Notes under the pieces: model-generated
What the model saw: only the letters and a program-made list of their open reading frames with translations
Databases searched by the model: none
Told to the model about the DNA's origin: nothing
Assembly: GCA_964607655.1 (NCBI GenBank)
Contig: CAZSKX010000001.1
Span: 6,314 to 70,313 of the forward strand
Origin: an uncultured Candidatus Saccharibacteria bacterium
Lineage (GTDB): Bacteria; Patescibacteriota; Minisyncoccia; Phycocordibacterales; Phycocordibacteraceae
Direction of reading: 5' to 3'
Length of the DNA: 64,000 nucleotides
Shown: piece after piece, positions 7,987 through 41,177 of the stretch
Numbering within the stretch: the first letter of the stretch is position 1
Layout of the letters: each line of letters begins with the position of its first letter
Position numbers and translations under genes: made by a program

Positions 7987-8027
7987 AGTTGCAAAAAAGC
8001 CATTAATACGGCATACTCGCTTCTATT

Positions 8028-38550: not shown

Positions 38551-38874
38551 GTGGTATTGGCTTCAGCCAAGAGTACGAAAAAAGCCGGAAAGGGATCCAA
38601 AAAAGTTCGAAAAAGGAAGAAAAAGAAGGAGTCTGAAGTAGACGCCCGACCTCATGTCGTTACGGAGTTCAAAGTAAGGACCTTCGTGGAAGGCTTTGAA
38701 GGTTGCTTTCGCTGTTTGCAGGAGTTGACCATTGTCCACGCCCCAAGTGGGTGTTCGGTGGTCTGCCCAAAAGGCATACTGCAAGGCATCTCAAGGCTGA
38801 AGCGAATGTTGGTCCCGGCCGAGCACGCCGCGACCTGTGACGGCAAGCGCCCCAAGGGCTATACGCTTGAGTAA
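38551..38874 (+). CDS. Possible truncated DUF177/YceD-like protein (Lys-rich N-terminus, Cys motifs)
   Basis: FEGCFRCLQEL and GCSVVCPKG resemble DUF177 CxxC motifs, and the position upstream of rpmF fits the conserved yceD–rpmF pairing. GTG start, atypical codon usage. Confidence 0.35.
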   Translation: MVLASAKSTKKAGKGSKKVRKRKKKKESEVDARPHVVTEFKVRTFVEGFEGCFRCLQELTIVHAPSGCSVVCPKGILQGISRLKRMLVPAEHAATCDGKRPKGYTLE

Positions 38875-38886
38875 CCAAGGGCGAAA

Positions 38887-38929
38887 GGGGCCGTTCTGCG
38901 CGTGCGCAGGGCGGCCCTTCCTCTTTTTT
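38887..38929 (+). terminator. Strong rho-independent terminator immediately upstream of rpmF
   Basis: GGGGCCGTTCTGCGCG-T-GCGCAGGGCGGCCC followed by TTCCTCTTTTTT. Confidence 0.65.
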
Positions 38930-38953
38930 AGGGCTCGTGGTAAAGTGGTCCCC

Positions 38954-39208
38954 ATGTCAGTACGAATGCGCCATACCCGCGGGCACACCAATAACCGCCG
39001 CTCACATCATGCCCTCTCGGAAACGAAGGCTATTAAAGATGCCAAGACGGGCACGCTCCGCCTGCCGCACCGTGTCGACGAATCGACCGGCACCTATCGC
39101 GGTAAGCAGATTGTCCAGGTCAAAGCGAAGAAGATTTCTACAAAGGTGAAAGGACCAAGTGTCGAGGTAGACGCGAAAGAAAAAGTAGAGAAGGCAGAGA
39201 AGTTATAA
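38954..39208 (+). CDS. rpmF: 50S ribosomal protein L32 (with a Lys-rich C-terminal extension)
   Basis: MSVRMRHTRGHTNNRRSHHAL resembles the L32 N-terminus. Confidence 0.8.
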   Translation: MSVRMRHTRGHTNNRRSHHALSETKAIKDAKTGTLRLPHRVDESTGTYRGKQIVQVKAKKISTKVKGPSVEVDAKEKVEKAEKL

Positions 39209-39284
39209 TATTTTTCCCCGTAAATCCCGCAGCTGCGCTTGCGTAGCTGCGGGATTTGCTATACTCAGTCTATAAGATCTTTCA

Positions 39285-40205
39285 ATGGCGAATCGACACT
39301 TAGCACGCTCTGTAGTTCTTCAGACACTCTTCGAGTGGGATACGACGCATGCGTCAGATACAGAAGCGCGCGAGATGCTCGAGCGTAACGTCGCAGAATT
39401 TGGCGGCGGCGACATTGATCGTCCGTTTATGGACAACCTCCTCCTGGGAGTCCTGAGTAAGCAAGAAGACCTAAATACCGTGATCACGAAGGCTGCCCCT
39501 GACTGGCCGCTCGATCGCATCGCACCCATCGACCGTAATATTCTGCGTCTCGGGCTCTTCGAGCTCCTCTTCGCCGATCGTGCGCAGGTCCCAGCCAAGG
39601 TGGCGATCAATGAAGCGATCGAACTTGCCAAGACCTTCGGCGGCGAATCATCAGGTCGTTTCGTAAACGGCGTGCTCGGCGCAGTCTATAAGGAGCTCGG
39701 TGAACCGGGCAAGGACGAACAGGGGAAGAAAAAGGTCAAGCGTGAAGATCTCCCGCTCGAGAAATATGGTGGCGGTATCGCCTATGCTAAACACGACGGT
39801 CAGTACTATCTGGCGCTTGTGCACGACGTCTTCGGGCACTGGACGCTCTCAAAAGGCCATATTGAGAAGGATCCGACGCCGCAGGCAGGAGTGGCGCGCG
39901 TCTTGAAAGAAGAGCTCGGGCTCGACGCGGTCGTCGAAGATCAGATCGGTGAAAACGAGTATATCGCCTCTCACCCCGAGAAGGGCAAGGTCGTGAAGCA
40001 CGTATGGTTCTTCTTGGCGTCCTGCAACTTCGACCCGCTCGTGCTAAAGAAGAGCGGCGGGCTCGACGACGCCAAATGGTTCCGTCTCCAGGACATCATT
40101 GACCTCAATTTCTATGATGATATGCTCCCCATCGTGACCCAGGCTGTTCAGAAGCTGCTCGATCACGCGAGCGCAGAGAAGGCGAGGGTCGCCTCACATG
40201 CCTAA
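39285..40205 (+). CDS. nusB: NusB (antitermination factor) fused to a C-terminal Nudix-hydrolase-like domain
   Basis: N-terminus MANRHLARSVVLQTLFEWD...RFVNGVLGAVYKEL matches NusB. The C-terminus GHIEKDPTPQAGVARVLKEELGL is collinear with the MutT Nudix box. Confidence 0.7.
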   Translation: MANRHLARSVVLQTLFEWDTTHASDTEAREMLERNVAEFGGGDIDRPFMDNLLLGVLSKQEDLNTVITKAAPDWPLDRIAPIDRNILRLGLFELLFADRAQVPAKVAINEAIELAKTFGGESSGRFVNGVLGAVYKELGEPGKDEQGKKKVKREDLPLEKYGGGIAYAKHDGQYYLALVHDVFGHWTLSKGHIEKDPTPQAGVARVLKEELGLDAVVEDQIGENEYIASHPEKGKVVKHVWFFLASCNFDPLVLKKSGGLDDAKWFRLQDIIDLNFYDDMLPIVTQAVQKLLDHASAEKARVASHA

Positions 40206-40890
40206 CTTTCAGCAATTTGCACTACAAAACGGCTTTACCATCGCGAATCTCGGCCTCCTCGCCGAGGCATTTACGCACCGCTCCTATCTAAACGAACATC
40301 GCGAGCACGTGGGCAATCATAACGAACGTCTCGAGTTCTTGGGGGACGCTGTCCTAGAACTGGTCATCACCGACTTCCTCTTTAAGAAGTTTCCTGAGAA
40401 GGATGAAGGTGAGCTGACTAATTATCGTGCCGCACTCGTCAATACGGTCTCACTCGCTGAGACGGCGCAGAAGACCGGCATCAACGACTATCTCTTACTC
40501 TCTAAGGGCGAAGCGAGAGACACGGGCCGCGCGCGCGACGTGATCCTTGCCGACACCTTCGAGGCGGTTATAGGGGCGCTCTTTCTCGACGCGGGATACC
40601 CAGCAGCAGAGAAGTTTATCGGGAAGAGCTTGTACGGAAAAATTGATGAGGTGATCGCCAAGCGTGCGTATCAGGACGCGAAGAGTCGGTTCCAAGAGCT
40701 CGCTCAGGAGAAGAAGGGAATCACGCCGACCTATCAGACGCTTGATGAAGTCGGTCCTGATCATGAGCGCATGTTTACCGTCGGCGTATTCCTCGGGGAG
40801 GACGAAGTGGCTCGGGGCGAAGGACGTAGTAAACAGGAGGCCGAACAGTCCGCTGCTCAGGCAGCGCTCGCCAAAAACGGTTGGGCATGA
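40198..40890 (+). CDS. rnc: Ribonuclease III
   Basis: Catalytic signature ERLEFLGDAVLELVITDFLF and a C-terminal dsRBD. Overlaps nusB by 8 nt. Confidence 0.9.
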   Translation: MPNFQQFALQNGFTIANLGLLAEAFTHRSYLNEHREHVGNHNERLEFLGDAVLELVITDFLFKKFPEKDEGELTNYRAALVNTVSLAETAQKTGINDYLLLSKGEARDTGRARDVILADTFEAVIGALFLDAGYPAAEKFIGKSLYGKIDEVIAKRAYQDAKSRFQELAQEKKGITPTYQTLDEVGPDHERMFTVGVFLGEDEVARGEGRSKQEAEQSAAQAALAKNGWA

Positions 40891-41177
40891 ACTGGAGCGT
40901 AATCGTTGCCGCGGGATTGCTGTTACTTCCTCAAGCCGCTTTAGCAGGGCCTATTTTTTCTTGTGAGGGCCTAAAGGGATTCTTGTTTTGCTCTTACGCG
41001 TTATTCGCCATATTTAGTCCATTTATTGCCCTTGCATTGATGCCCGTGTTTGTTGCTATAGTCATCTATTGGTATTATCGCCCCGGCAGAGTTTCGACGG
41101 TTATAACAGCCTGGATCATTCTTCTCTTGGAAATTGCAGCGCTCGGCGTCTTTATCTATACCCAGGTGGGATTCTGA
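40881..41177 (+). CDS. Hypothetical small membrane protein (3 TM helices)
   Basis: 98-aa hydrophobic ORF overlapping the rnc end. Confidence 0.35.
   Translation: MGMNWSVIVAAGLLLLPQAALAGPIFSCEGLKGFLFCSYALFAIFSPFIALALMPVFVAIVIYWYYRPGRVSTVITAWIILLLEIAALGVFIYTQVGF

What the first reader, a model, noticed from the sequence alone, without database searches (positions are those of the whole stretch)
39285..40205. NusB fused to a Nudix-hydrolase-like domain, immediately upstream of rnc
The first ~145 aa are a clear NusB. After a Lys-rich linker, a ~140-aa Nudix-fold domain follows. Its Nudix box GHIEKDPTPQAGVARVLKEELGL is collinear with MutT GKLEPGETPEQAVVRELQEEVGI, but two of the catalytic Glu positions are replaced by Pro and Val, while the EE pair is retained. 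A transcription antitermination factor fused to a (possibly degenerate) nucleotide-pyrophosphatase or RNA-decapping-type domain is unusual. The gene overlaps the RNase III gene by 8 nt, placing three RNA-processing functions in one operon.
Basis: motifs are seen in sequence; Nudix box residues are established knowledge.
Basis: partly seen in the sequence, partly recalled or inferred. Interest (0 to 1): 0.65.

Follow-up and report, generated by a model that had tools for sequence, protein, structure and literature searches.

The report
NusB fused to a Nudix domain
This gene joins the rRNA transcription factor NusB to a nucleotide-binding Nudix domain that keeps its ligand pocket but has lost key catalytic residues. 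The fusion is standard across a large group of ultra-small (CPR) bacteria, and no paper found in the searches describes it.

Summary
ORF 39285-40205 (+) encodes one 306-aa protein. Residues 7-136 are NusB (Pfam 119.7 bits; TIGR01951 above cutoff). Residues about 158-305 are a Nudix fold (Pfam 39.6 bits, threshold 21.1). A Lys-rich linker joins them.

The fusion is not an assembly artefact. It is intact in 80 of 80 related species genomes (Kaiserbacteria), always within rpmF-nusB::nudix-rnc-smc. It is also found across Paceibacteria/Parcubacteria.

Among 48 deep fused representatives only 6 keep a full Nudix box, against 30 of 43 standalone relatives. The adenine and phosphate contact residues mapped from human NUDT2 are 90-100% conserved.

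This matches the pattern of NrtR regulators. My best reading is a NusB carrying a Nudix-derived ligand-binding module that is largely non-catalytic in this lineage. It would link rRNA antitermination and RNase III processing to an adenine polyphosphate or an RNA 5' end. The ligand and any residual activity are untested.

The parts
39285..40205 (+). nusB::nudix fusion gene (306 aa plus stop)
   Evidence: ORF list and sequence. Both Pfam domains lie on one polypeptide. Intact in 80 of 80 related genomes.
39285..39704 (+). NusB domain (aa 1-140)
39705..39755 (+). Lys-rich linker (aa 141-157). It begins with the conserved motif G139-E140-P141-G142-K143.
   Evidence: pLDDT below 50 for aa 141-152. 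G139, E140 and P141 are invariant and G142 and K143 are at least 90% conserved in 149 fusions.
39756..40202 (+). Nudix-fold domain of ApnA-hydrolase type (aa 158-306, including the C-terminal helix 278-305)
39855..39923 (+). Degenerate Nudix box G191-L213 (GHIEKDPTPQAGVARVLKEELGL): P197 replaces the GX5E Glu and V206 replaces the 'RE' Glu
   Evidence: Read directly from the sequence. In 80 Kaiserbacteria, position 206 is V (60) or I (20), position 197 is never E, and E210 is present in 80 of 80.
40198..40890 (+). rnc (RNase III, 230 aa), overlapping the fusion gene by 8 nt (40198-40205)
   Evidence: Pfam Ribonucleas_3_3, Ribonuclease_3 and dsrm. rnc lies directly downstream in 79 of 80 loci and in Nomurabacteria locus L081. 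The -8 overlap occurs in 32 of 79 loci.
38837..39208 (+). rpmF (ribosomal protein L32), the conserved upstream neighbour. The listed ORF starts at a GTG; the true start is probably further downstream.
   Evidence: PF01783 hit at aa 45-94 of the listed ORF. Upstream of the fusion in 78 of 80 loci and in L081.
39220..39259 (+). 18-bp hairpin in the rpmF-nusB intergenic region
   Evidence: RNAfold MFE -33.9 kcal/mol for the 80 nt upstream of the start codon. The equivalent stretch in relatives has a median z of -2.1. Function untested.

Best explanation
The gene encodes this lineage's NusB, the BoxA-RNA and S10-binding subunit of the rRNA antitermination complex. It is permanently extended by a C-terminal Nudix domain derived from a dinucleoside-polyphosphate (Ap4A/Ap6A) hydrolase.

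In this lineage (Kaiserbacteria) the domain has lost the 'RE' metal-ligand glutamate (now Val or Ile) and the GX5E glutamate. It keeps the Lys, Tyr, Lys, Tyr and Asp residues that hold the adenine and the first phosphate in Ap4A hydrolases.

I therefore propose that it works mainly as a ligand-binding (reader or effector) module rather than as an efficient hydrolase. It would be tethered by a flexible Lys-rich linker to NusB on the nascent rRNA leader. There it would bind an adenine-nucleotide polyphosphate. That could be a free alarmone such as Ap4A or ATP, or the ppp- or Np4-capped 5' end of the transcript that NusB already holds. This would couple antitermination, and the RNase III processing encoded by the next gene, to that signal.

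Shown: the fusion, both folds, the ApnA-hydrolase affinity, the fixed loss of catalytic residues, conservation of ligand-contact residues, purifying selection and conserved synteny.

Inferred: loss of activity, ligand binding, the identity of the ligand and any regulatory consequence.
For: The fusion and both folds are established.

The gene is intact in 80 of 80 species, with the order rnhB-rpmF-nusB::nudix-rnc-smc. The same order occurs around a Nomurabacteria orthologue that has a canonical box.

Both domains are under purifying selection. Median dN/dS is 0.062 for Nudix and 0.075 for NusB. The Nudix domain is slightly better conserved than NusB.

Catalytic residues are lost:
- In 80 Kaiserbacteria, position 206 is V or I and never E, and position 197 is never E.
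- Among 48 fused 50%-identity cluster representatives, the 'RE' Glu is kept in 12 and the whole box in 6. Among 43 standalone relatives the figures are 33 and 30.
- The human equivalent, E58, appears as the E58A mutant in two deposited structures: 4ijx and 1xsa, whose sequence reads LRATQEE.

Ligand-contact residues are kept. They were mapped from human NUDT2 by MAFFT and hhalign, with roles taken from PMC4734340:
- K42 maps to K190, conserved in 47 of 48 fused representatives.
- Y82 maps to Y226: 43 Y and 4 F.
- K89 maps to K238: 36 K and 8 R.
- F128 maps to Y277, conserved in 45 of 48.
- E130 maps to D279, conserved in 40 of 48.
- All five are 80 of 80 in Kaiserbacteria.

There is a direct precedent. 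NrtR regulators arose by fusing a Nudix hydrolase to a nucleic-acid-binding domain. Most have randomised signature residues and no activity, yet still bind ADP-ribose as an effector (PMC2330246).

The antitermination complex is reported to boost co-transcriptional RNase III cleavage (bioRxiv 10.64898/2026.03.17.712431). This makes the nusB-rnc linkage functionally coherent.
Against: No biochemistry exists for any member of this family.

E209, E210 and D261/D262 are fully conserved. D196, conserved in 77 of 80, sits one residue before the lost GX5E glutamate and could substitute for it. Residual or altered catalysis is therefore possible.

About half of the consensus-near fusions (58 of 120, Nomurabacteria-type) keep a canonical box. 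The ancestral and still common state is probably an active enzyme.

Conserved aromatic and Lys residues could be kept for fold stability or for protein or RNA contacts rather than for a small ligand.

I had no model coordinates, so pocket geometry was not inspected.

Whether these genomes carry another NusB, another Nudix enzyme or an ApaH/YqeK enzyme could not be checked.
Confidence: 0.45

Rival explanations
1. The Nudix domain is still an active pyrophosphohydrolase of the RppH or ApnA-hydrolase type and NusB delivers it to nascent rRNA. It would remove pyrophosphate or an Np4/NAD-type cap from the 5' end of the leader, or clear Np4A near RNA polymerase. That would license 5'-end-dependent processing alongside RNase III. 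In Kaiserbacteria, D196, E209, E210 and D261/D262 would be enough for metal binding.
For: Canonical Nudix boxes occur in 58 of 120 consensus-near fusions and in orthologue P0279, which sits in the same operon context. E209, E210, D196 and D261/D262 are conserved in Kaiserbacteria. The fold family includes RNA 5'-end enzymes such as BdRppH 3ees and Dcp2. RppH is a Nudix enzyme that removes Np4 caps and pyrophosphate from RNA (PMC8833179).
Against: The 'RE' Glu is V or I in 80 of 80 Kaiserbacteria and is lost in 36 of 48 deep fused representatives. Some of these have also lost one of the EE pair, for example the RVVKKE and RIVKKE boxes. The equivalent human residue E58 is mutated to Ala in the deposited structures 4ijx and 1xsa. 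In NrtR a perturbed signature goes with undetectable activity, and restoring the signature raised the rate 600-fold. All RppH NCBIfam models score far below cutoff, at most 17.5 bits against 116-139.
Confidence: 0.3
2. The Nudix domain is a ligand-independent structural module. It would be an extra protein-protein or protein-RNA contact that stabilises the antitermination complex on RNA polymerase. The analogy is the enzyme-fold subunit SuhB in the E. coli rrnTAC. The former active site would be irrelevant.
Against: The best-conserved surface-type residues are exactly those that contact adenine and phosphate in Ap4A hydrolases. A purely structural role does not predict that. AlphaFold gives no fixed inter-domain arrangement (pTM 0.52, disordered linker).
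Confidence: 0.17
3. The fusion is an artefact (frameshift, misassembly or wrong gene call), or a recent accidental read-through of two adjacent genes with no joint function.
For: None was found.
Against: There is one uninterrupted ORF in the window and in 80 of 80 species-level genomes from many independent studies. Thousands of 90%-identity clusters carry both Pfam domains. dN/dS is about 0.06-0.075 in both halves. The linker motif is conserved.
Confidence: 0.01

Closest known systems
NusB (E. coli, Aquifex, T. maritima; TIGR01951 / PF01029)
   Different: Canonical NusB is a single-domain protein of about 130-150 aa. This one carries a C-terminal linker and a 150-aa Nudix domain.
Dinucleoside-polyphosphate (Ap4A/Ap6A) Nudix hydrolases: human NUDT2, C. 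trachomatis CT771, A. aeolicus aq_158, T. thermophilus Ndx1
   Same: These are the best sequence and structure matches for the C-terminal domain. The W-T-x-x-K-G motif, the Tyr downstream of the box, and the Lys and aromatic residues that hold adenine and phosphate are all conserved.
   Different: The 'RE' glutamate (human E58) is Val and the GX5E glutamate is Pro. The domain is fused to NusB. Activity has not been tested.
NrtR (and AraR/NadQ) Nudix-related transcriptional regulators
   Same: A Nudix hydrolase is fused to a nucleic-acid-binding transcription factor. A minority of members keep an intact signature. Most have perturbed catalytic residues but keep ligand binding, and the ligand acts as an effector (PMC2330246). 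The NrtR Nudix domain is among the top fold hits.
   Different: The partner in NrtR is a winged-helix DNA-binding domain, not NusB. The NrtR Nudix domain is of the ADP-ribose pyrophosphatase type and sits at the N-terminus. NrtR regulates initiation at operators, not elongation or antitermination.
RsmB/Fmu (Sun) 16S rRNA methyltransferase with an N-terminal NusB-like domain
   Different: There is no methyltransferase domain here. The N-terminal domain here scores as true NusB, above the equivalog cutoff, and scores far below every RsmB cutoff.
RppH / BdRppH RNA pyrophosphohydrolases
   Same: They are Nudix enzymes related to ApnA hydrolases that act on RNA 5' ends, including Np4 caps (PMC8833179). 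BdRppH 3ees appears among both sequence and fold hits.
   Different: All RppH family models score far below cutoff. The catalytic 'RE' Glu is missing. RppH enzymes are standalone proteins.
SuhB in the E. coli rRNA antitermination complex
   Same: An enzyme-fold protein is recruited to the NusB/NusE/BoxA complex, where it has an architectural or regulatory role.
   Different: SuhB has a different fold (inositol monophosphatase). It is a separate polypeptide that binds NusA and RNA polymerase. No homology to the Nudix domain is implied.

Membership tests
NusB (TIGR01951 / PF01029) | Family HMM score above the curated cutoff | tested here: met
   TIGR01951 124.2 bits against 88.35. PF01029 119.7 bits against 23.1.
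NusB (TIGR01951 / PF01029) | All-helical NusB fold | tested here: met
NusB (TIGR01951 / PF01029) | Binds S10 (NusE) and BoxA RNA, and is the cell's antitermination NusB | not testable with these tools
   Only alignment-level support exists: the Arg-rich N-terminus and F16 at the E. coli Y18 position. No second NusB is present in the 64-kb window.
Nudix superfamily (PF00293) | Family HMM score above the gathering score, and an alpha/beta/alpha Nudix fold | tested here: met
Active Nudix hydrolases | Intact signature GX5EX7REUXEEXGU | tested here: not met
   P197 replaces the first Glu and V206 replaces the 'RE' Glu. This state is fixed in 80 of 80 relatives.
Active Nudix hydrolases | Mg2+/Mn2+-dependent pyrophosphohydrolase activity | not testable with these tools
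   This needs an enzyme assay.
ApnA (Ap4A/Ap6A) hydrolase subfamily | Closest sequence and structure relatives are ApnA hydrolases | tested here: met
ApnA (Ap4A/Ap6A) hydrolase subfamily | Adenine- and phosphate-binding residues (human K42, Y82, K89, F128) | tested here: met
   The equivalents are K190, Y226, K238 and Y277. All are 80 of 80 in Kaiserbacteria and 75-98% strictly conserved (92-98% counting Y/F and K/R) in deep fusions. Residue roles are from PMC4734340.
ApnA (Ap4A/Ap6A) hydrolase subfamily | Catalytic or metal-ligand Glu of the box (human E58) | tested here: not met
   V206 occupies this position.
RppH RNA pyrophosphohydrolase | NCBIfam RppH equivalog models above cutoff | tested here: not met
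   The best score is 17.5 bits against a cutoff of 118 (NF001936).
NrtR-type Nudix effector regulators | Nudix domain with a perturbed signature fused to a nucleic-acid-binding regulator | tested here: met
   The box is degenerate and fused to the RNA-binding NusB.
NrtR-type Nudix effector regulators | C-terminal winged-helix DNA-binding domain, and a Nudix domain of the ADPR-pyrophosphatase type | tested here: not met
   No wHTH domain is present. The partner is an N-terminal NusB, and the Nudix domain is of the ApnA-hydrolase type. The protein works like NrtR but is not a member.
RsmB/Fmu | NusB-like domain followed by a SAM-dependent m5C methyltransferase domain | tested here: not met
   RsmB models match only aa 7-147, at 16-56 bits against cutoffs of 269-540. 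The C-terminal domain is Nudix.

The most novel reading that the evidence does not exclude
In Paceibacteria, rRNA transcription antitermination is directly controlled by nucleotides or by the RNA 5' end. NusB would carry a built-in reader for an adenine polyphosphate, either an Ap4A-type alarmone or the ppp- or Np4-capped 5' end of the nascent rRNA leader. Occupancy of that pocket would tune assembly or stability of the antitermination complex and the coupled RNase III processing. In lineages with an intact box, the same domain would decap or dephosphorylate the leader co-transcriptionally. This would be a new regulatory input into the Nus machinery, and the first Nudix effector domain acting on transcription elongation rather than initiation.
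Probability: 0.3. Interest if true: 0.8.

Novelty: new variant of a known kind. Interest (0 to 1): 0.55.

Why it matters
NusB is a universal, normally single-domain core factor of rRNA synthesis. A conserved accessory domain on it, across a whole class of ultra-small bacteria with reduced genomes, implies an input into ribosome biogenesis that model organisms lack.

The pattern of lost catalytic residues with a conserved ligand pocket mirrors how Nudix enzymes became the effector domains of NrtR regulators. It gives a concrete, testable hypothesis: rRNA antitermination and RNase III processing are coupled to Ap4A-type alarmones or to the 5'-end status of the transcript.

There is also a practical consequence. 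Among the hits listed, the entries that carry a source name are labelled only 'NusB', so the Nudix half goes unrecorded.

Tried and rejected
**Origin of the fusion.** I scanned metagenome contigs with P0159, the closest well-covered standalone relative. This gave only generic Nudix genes of at most 36% identity. None lay next to nusB, rnc or rpmF. It says nothing about the origin.

**Taxon names for standalone relatives.** The cluster look-up returned almost none.

**A second Nudix or NusB gene.** None is present in the 64-kb window. No second Nudix gene lies in the ±6-kb flanks of 82 loci.

**Unavailable resources.** The afdb50 fold library was not available. The CT771 paper (PMC3956076) is not held, so residue roles came from the P. 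falciparum and human Ap4A hydrolase paper instead.

**Literature searches.** Searches for NusB with Nudix and fusion, with Parcubacteria, Patescibacteria or CPR, and with RppH found nothing describing this architecture.

**Readings rejected.**
- MutT, NudG or IDI assignments: these are only weak, sub-cutoff NCBIfam hits.
- A Nudt16-type decapping enzyme: E = 0.028, below threshold.
- NudC-type NAD decapping: it is not among the close matches.
- A frameshift artefact: ruled out.

**Promoter scan.** The sigma-70 promoter and terminator scan gave no more sites than shuffled sequence, so it was not used.

Full report
**1. Observation**

The window has a single ORF at 39285-40205 (+) of 306 aa.
- Pfam places NusB (PF01029, 119.7 bits) on aa 7-136.
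- Pfam places NUDIX (PF00293, 39.6 bits against a gathering score of 21.1) on aa 183-275.
- The NCBIfam equivalog TIGR01951 (nusB) scores 124.2 bits against a cutoff of 88.35.

The Nudix box is G191-L213, GHIEKDPTPQAGVARVLKEELGL. It is collinear with GX5EX7REUXEEXGU. P197 stands at the first Glu and V206 at the 'RE' Glu. The EE pair (E209, E210) is retained.

The next ORF, 40198-40890, is RNase III (Ribonucleas_3_3, Ribonuclease_3, dsrm). Its ATG lies 8 nt before the end of the fusion gene.

**2. It is a real, selected gene**

A scan of one genome per species found at least 200 genomes encoding a relative. The best 80 were kept. They are 76-87% identical and are mostly labelled Kaiserbacteria, Paceibacterota or Parcubacteria.
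- In all 80 the fusion is one uninterrupted ORF of 295-313 aa.
- The order dnaE(-) | rnhB - rpmF - nusB::nudix - rnc - smc is conserved. rnc is present in 79 of 80 and rpmF in 78 of 80.
- The same 8-nt ATGnnTAA overlap with rnc recurs in 32 of 79 loci.

Across these species the Nudix half is at least as conserved as the NusB half. The mean frequency of the commonest residue is 0.898 against 0.884. Median pairwise dN/dS is 0.062 for Nudix and 0.075 for NusB. dS is about 1.4, which is close to saturation, but the ratio is clearly far below 1. A frameshift or misassembly is excluded.

**3. Distribution**

Two protein searches each saturated at 8000 candidate 90%-identity clusters. All 240 listed hits carry both PF01029 and PF00293. 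Nearly all hits that carry a source name are called 'transcription antitermination factor NusB' or 'N utilization substance protein B' (one partial entry is labelled 'NUDIX domain-containing protein'). The taxon labels include Kaiserbacteria, Nomurabacteria, Moranbacteria, Paceibacterota, Minisyncoccia and Parcubacteria.

An exhaustive HMMER search with the Nudix domain alone, against 50%-identity representatives, gave 136 proteins at E <= 1e-10. Of the best 150, 55 also contain a NusB domain, and Nudix-domain identity runs down to about 28%. The fusion is therefore old and widespread within Paceibacteria/Parcubacteria.

A Nomurabacteria orthologue (P0279) sits in the same rpmF - nusB::nudix - rnc - smc context.

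**4. Structure**

The AlphaFold2 model was built from 149 fusions. Mean pLDDT is 86.4 and pTM is 0.52. It shows two well-folded domains joined by a disordered linker (aa 141-152, pLDDT below 50).
- The non-catalytic NrtR Nudix domain also ranks high.

Sequence searches agree. CT771 is the best PDB hit (E 2.1e-5). A profile of the family aligns to human NUDT2 with 96.5% probability. No RppH, MutT or NudG model comes near its cutoff.

**5. The catalytic site is lost but the ligand site is kept**

In the 80 Kaiserbacteria species:
- Position 206 is V (60) or I (20), never Glu.
- Position 197 is A, P, S, T, V or K, never Glu.
- E210 is invariant and E209 is present in 77 of 80.

Among deep representatives, a complete box is present in only 6 of 48 fused proteins, against 30 of 43 standalone relatives. 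The 'RE' Glu is kept in 12 of 48 against 33 of 43. The standalone class probably contains some N-terminally truncated fusions, so this contrast is conservative.

On a crude NJ tree, canonical boxes are scattered among degenerate ones (RK, RV/RI, RA, KR, KKE, KDE and others). This suggests repeated independent loss. In the consensus-near set (Nomurabacteria-type), 58 of 120 remain canonical, including P0279. The ancestral fusion was therefore probably an active enzyme.

I checked my recalled human NUDT2 sequence against PDB 3u53 and it is identical. I then mapped residues by MAFFT and hhalign. Their roles come from the human and P. falciparum Ap4A hydrolase structures (PMC4734340). Among the 48 fused representatives:

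| Human NUDT2 | Window protein | Conservation in 48 fused representatives |
|---|---|---|
| K42 | K190 | 47 |
| Y82 | Y226 | 43 Y and 4 F |
| K89 | K238 | 36 K and 8 R |
| F128 | Y277 | 45 |
| E130 | D279 | 40 |
| W38 | W186 | 48 |

All of these are 80 of 80 in Kaiserbacteria.

In contrast, human E58 aligns with V206. E58A is the mutant deposited as 4ijx, and the 1xsa chain also carries Ala at this position. The residues that hold adenine and the first phosphate are thus far better conserved in the fusions than the residues that do the chemistry.

**6. Mechanism**

This is the evolutionary signature described for NrtR. There, a Nudix hydrolase was fused to a nucleic-acid-binding domain. A few members keep an intact signature and their activity. 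Most have signature residues replaced more or less at random, show no detectable hydrolysis, and bind ADP-ribose as an effector. Restoring the signature in Slr1690 raised kcat 600-fold (PMC2330246).

By analogy, I propose that the window protein is the organism's NusB with a flexibly tethered, largely non-catalytic reader domain of ApnA-hydrolase type. NusB-S10 binds BoxA in the nascent rRNA leader. The complete antitermination complex is reported to boost co-transcriptional RNase III processing (bioRxiv 10.64898/2026.03.17.712431). The gene is also translationally overlapped with rnc.

The simplest functional picture is therefore that the Nudix domain brings a nucleotide signal to the rRNA transcription and processing complex. 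That signal could be free Ap4A or ATP, or the ppp- or Np4-capped 5' end of the leader. Np4 caps and their removal by the Nudix enzyme RppH are documented in PMC8833179 and PMC7044304.

The ligand, the loss of activity and any regulatory output are inferences.

**7. Rivals**

(a) *Residual or altered catalysis.* D196 is conserved in 77 of 80 and sits one residue before the missing GX5E Glu. E209, E210 and D261/D262 are invariant or nearly so. From general knowledge, Nudix enzymes with variant boxes, such as GDP-mannose mannosyl hydrolase, are active. In canonical-box lineages the domain is probably an NusB-targeted RppH or ApnA-hydrolase.

(b) *A ligand-independent architectural role, like SuhB in the E. 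coli complex*. The invariant GEPGK linker motif could be part of such an interface.

(c) *Artefact.* This is excluded.

**8. Comparison with known systems and novelty**

The protein is a bona fide NusB by HMM and by fold. It is a member of the Nudix superfamily by HMM and by fold. It fails the defining signature of active Nudix hydrolases. It is not an RppH, NrtR or RsmB member.

It works most like NrtR (a Nudix-derived effector domain on a transcription factor). It also resembles RsmB in using a NusB fold as the rRNA-targeting half of a two-domain protein.

Full-text searches found no paper describing a NusB-Nudix architecture. The sequences are public but annotated only as NusB.

I rate it a new variant of a known kind. 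It is of moderate to good interest because it points to an undescribed input into the Nus/rRNA machinery in CPR bacteria.

**9. Limits**
- There is no biochemistry for any member.
- There was no whole-genome census for other NusB, Nudix or ApaH genes.
- The trees are crude.
- The counts of fused against standalone proteins are not phylogenetically independent.

Noticed in passing
window 39220-39259 (+): A perfect 18-bp hairpin (GTAAATCCCGCAGCTGCG-CTTG-CGTAGCTGCGGGATTTGC) lies between the rpmF stop and the nusB::nudix start. The MFE of the 80-nt upstream stretch is -33.9 kcal/mol. No U-tract follows the stem. In 79 related loci the equivalent 80 nt fold more stably than shuffles (median z -2.1, with 52% below -2). 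It could be the rpmF terminator, or an RNase III autoregulatory site ahead of the rnc-containing operon, as in the E. coli rnc leader (from memory, untested).
   Followed up: partly
window 39699-39713 (aa 139-143, GEPGK): The start of the inter-domain linker is invariant or nearly so in 149 fusions. G139, E140 and P141 are invariant and G142 and K143 are at least 90% conserved. AlphaFold nevertheless models it as disordered. A conserved motif in a flexible linker suggests a docking or hinge function, which is unexplained.
   Followed up: no
window 40198-40205, and loci L001-L080: The identical 8-nt overlap (ATGnnTAA) between the fusion gene's stop and the rnc start recurs in 32 of 79 Kaiserbacteria loci. 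The others have gaps from 0 to about 670 nt. This suggests translational coupling in part of the lineage.
   Followed up: partly
window 38837-39208 (+): The rpmF ORF is listed as 123 aa from a GTG, but the L32 Pfam match covers only aa 45-94. The real start is probably the internal ATG giving MSVRMRHTRGH.... The protein then has an unusually long Lys-rich C-terminal tail for an L32.
   Followed up: no
window 40881-41177 (+): A 98-aa strongly hydrophobic ORF sits between rnc and smc and overlaps the end of rnc. tblastn found no counterpart in any of the 80 related loci. It may be lineage-specific or not a gene.
   Followed up: no
loci L014, L015, L023, L026 and others; protein P0189: Several public MAG records that carry this Kaiserbacteria-type locus (about 80% identical, same synteny) are titled 'uncultured Candidatus Saccharibacteria'. 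One fused protein, P0189, is assigned to an 'Alphaproteobacteria bacterium' MAG. These are probably taxonomic mislabels or mis-binning.
   Followed up: no
proteins P0143 and P0145: Some fused lineages have lost two of the three helix glutamates (RVVKKE, RIVKKE). Others have swapped R and E for K and R (KRIKEE, 19 of 120). These recurring, non-random variants may mark sub-families with different ligand chemistry.
   Followed up: no
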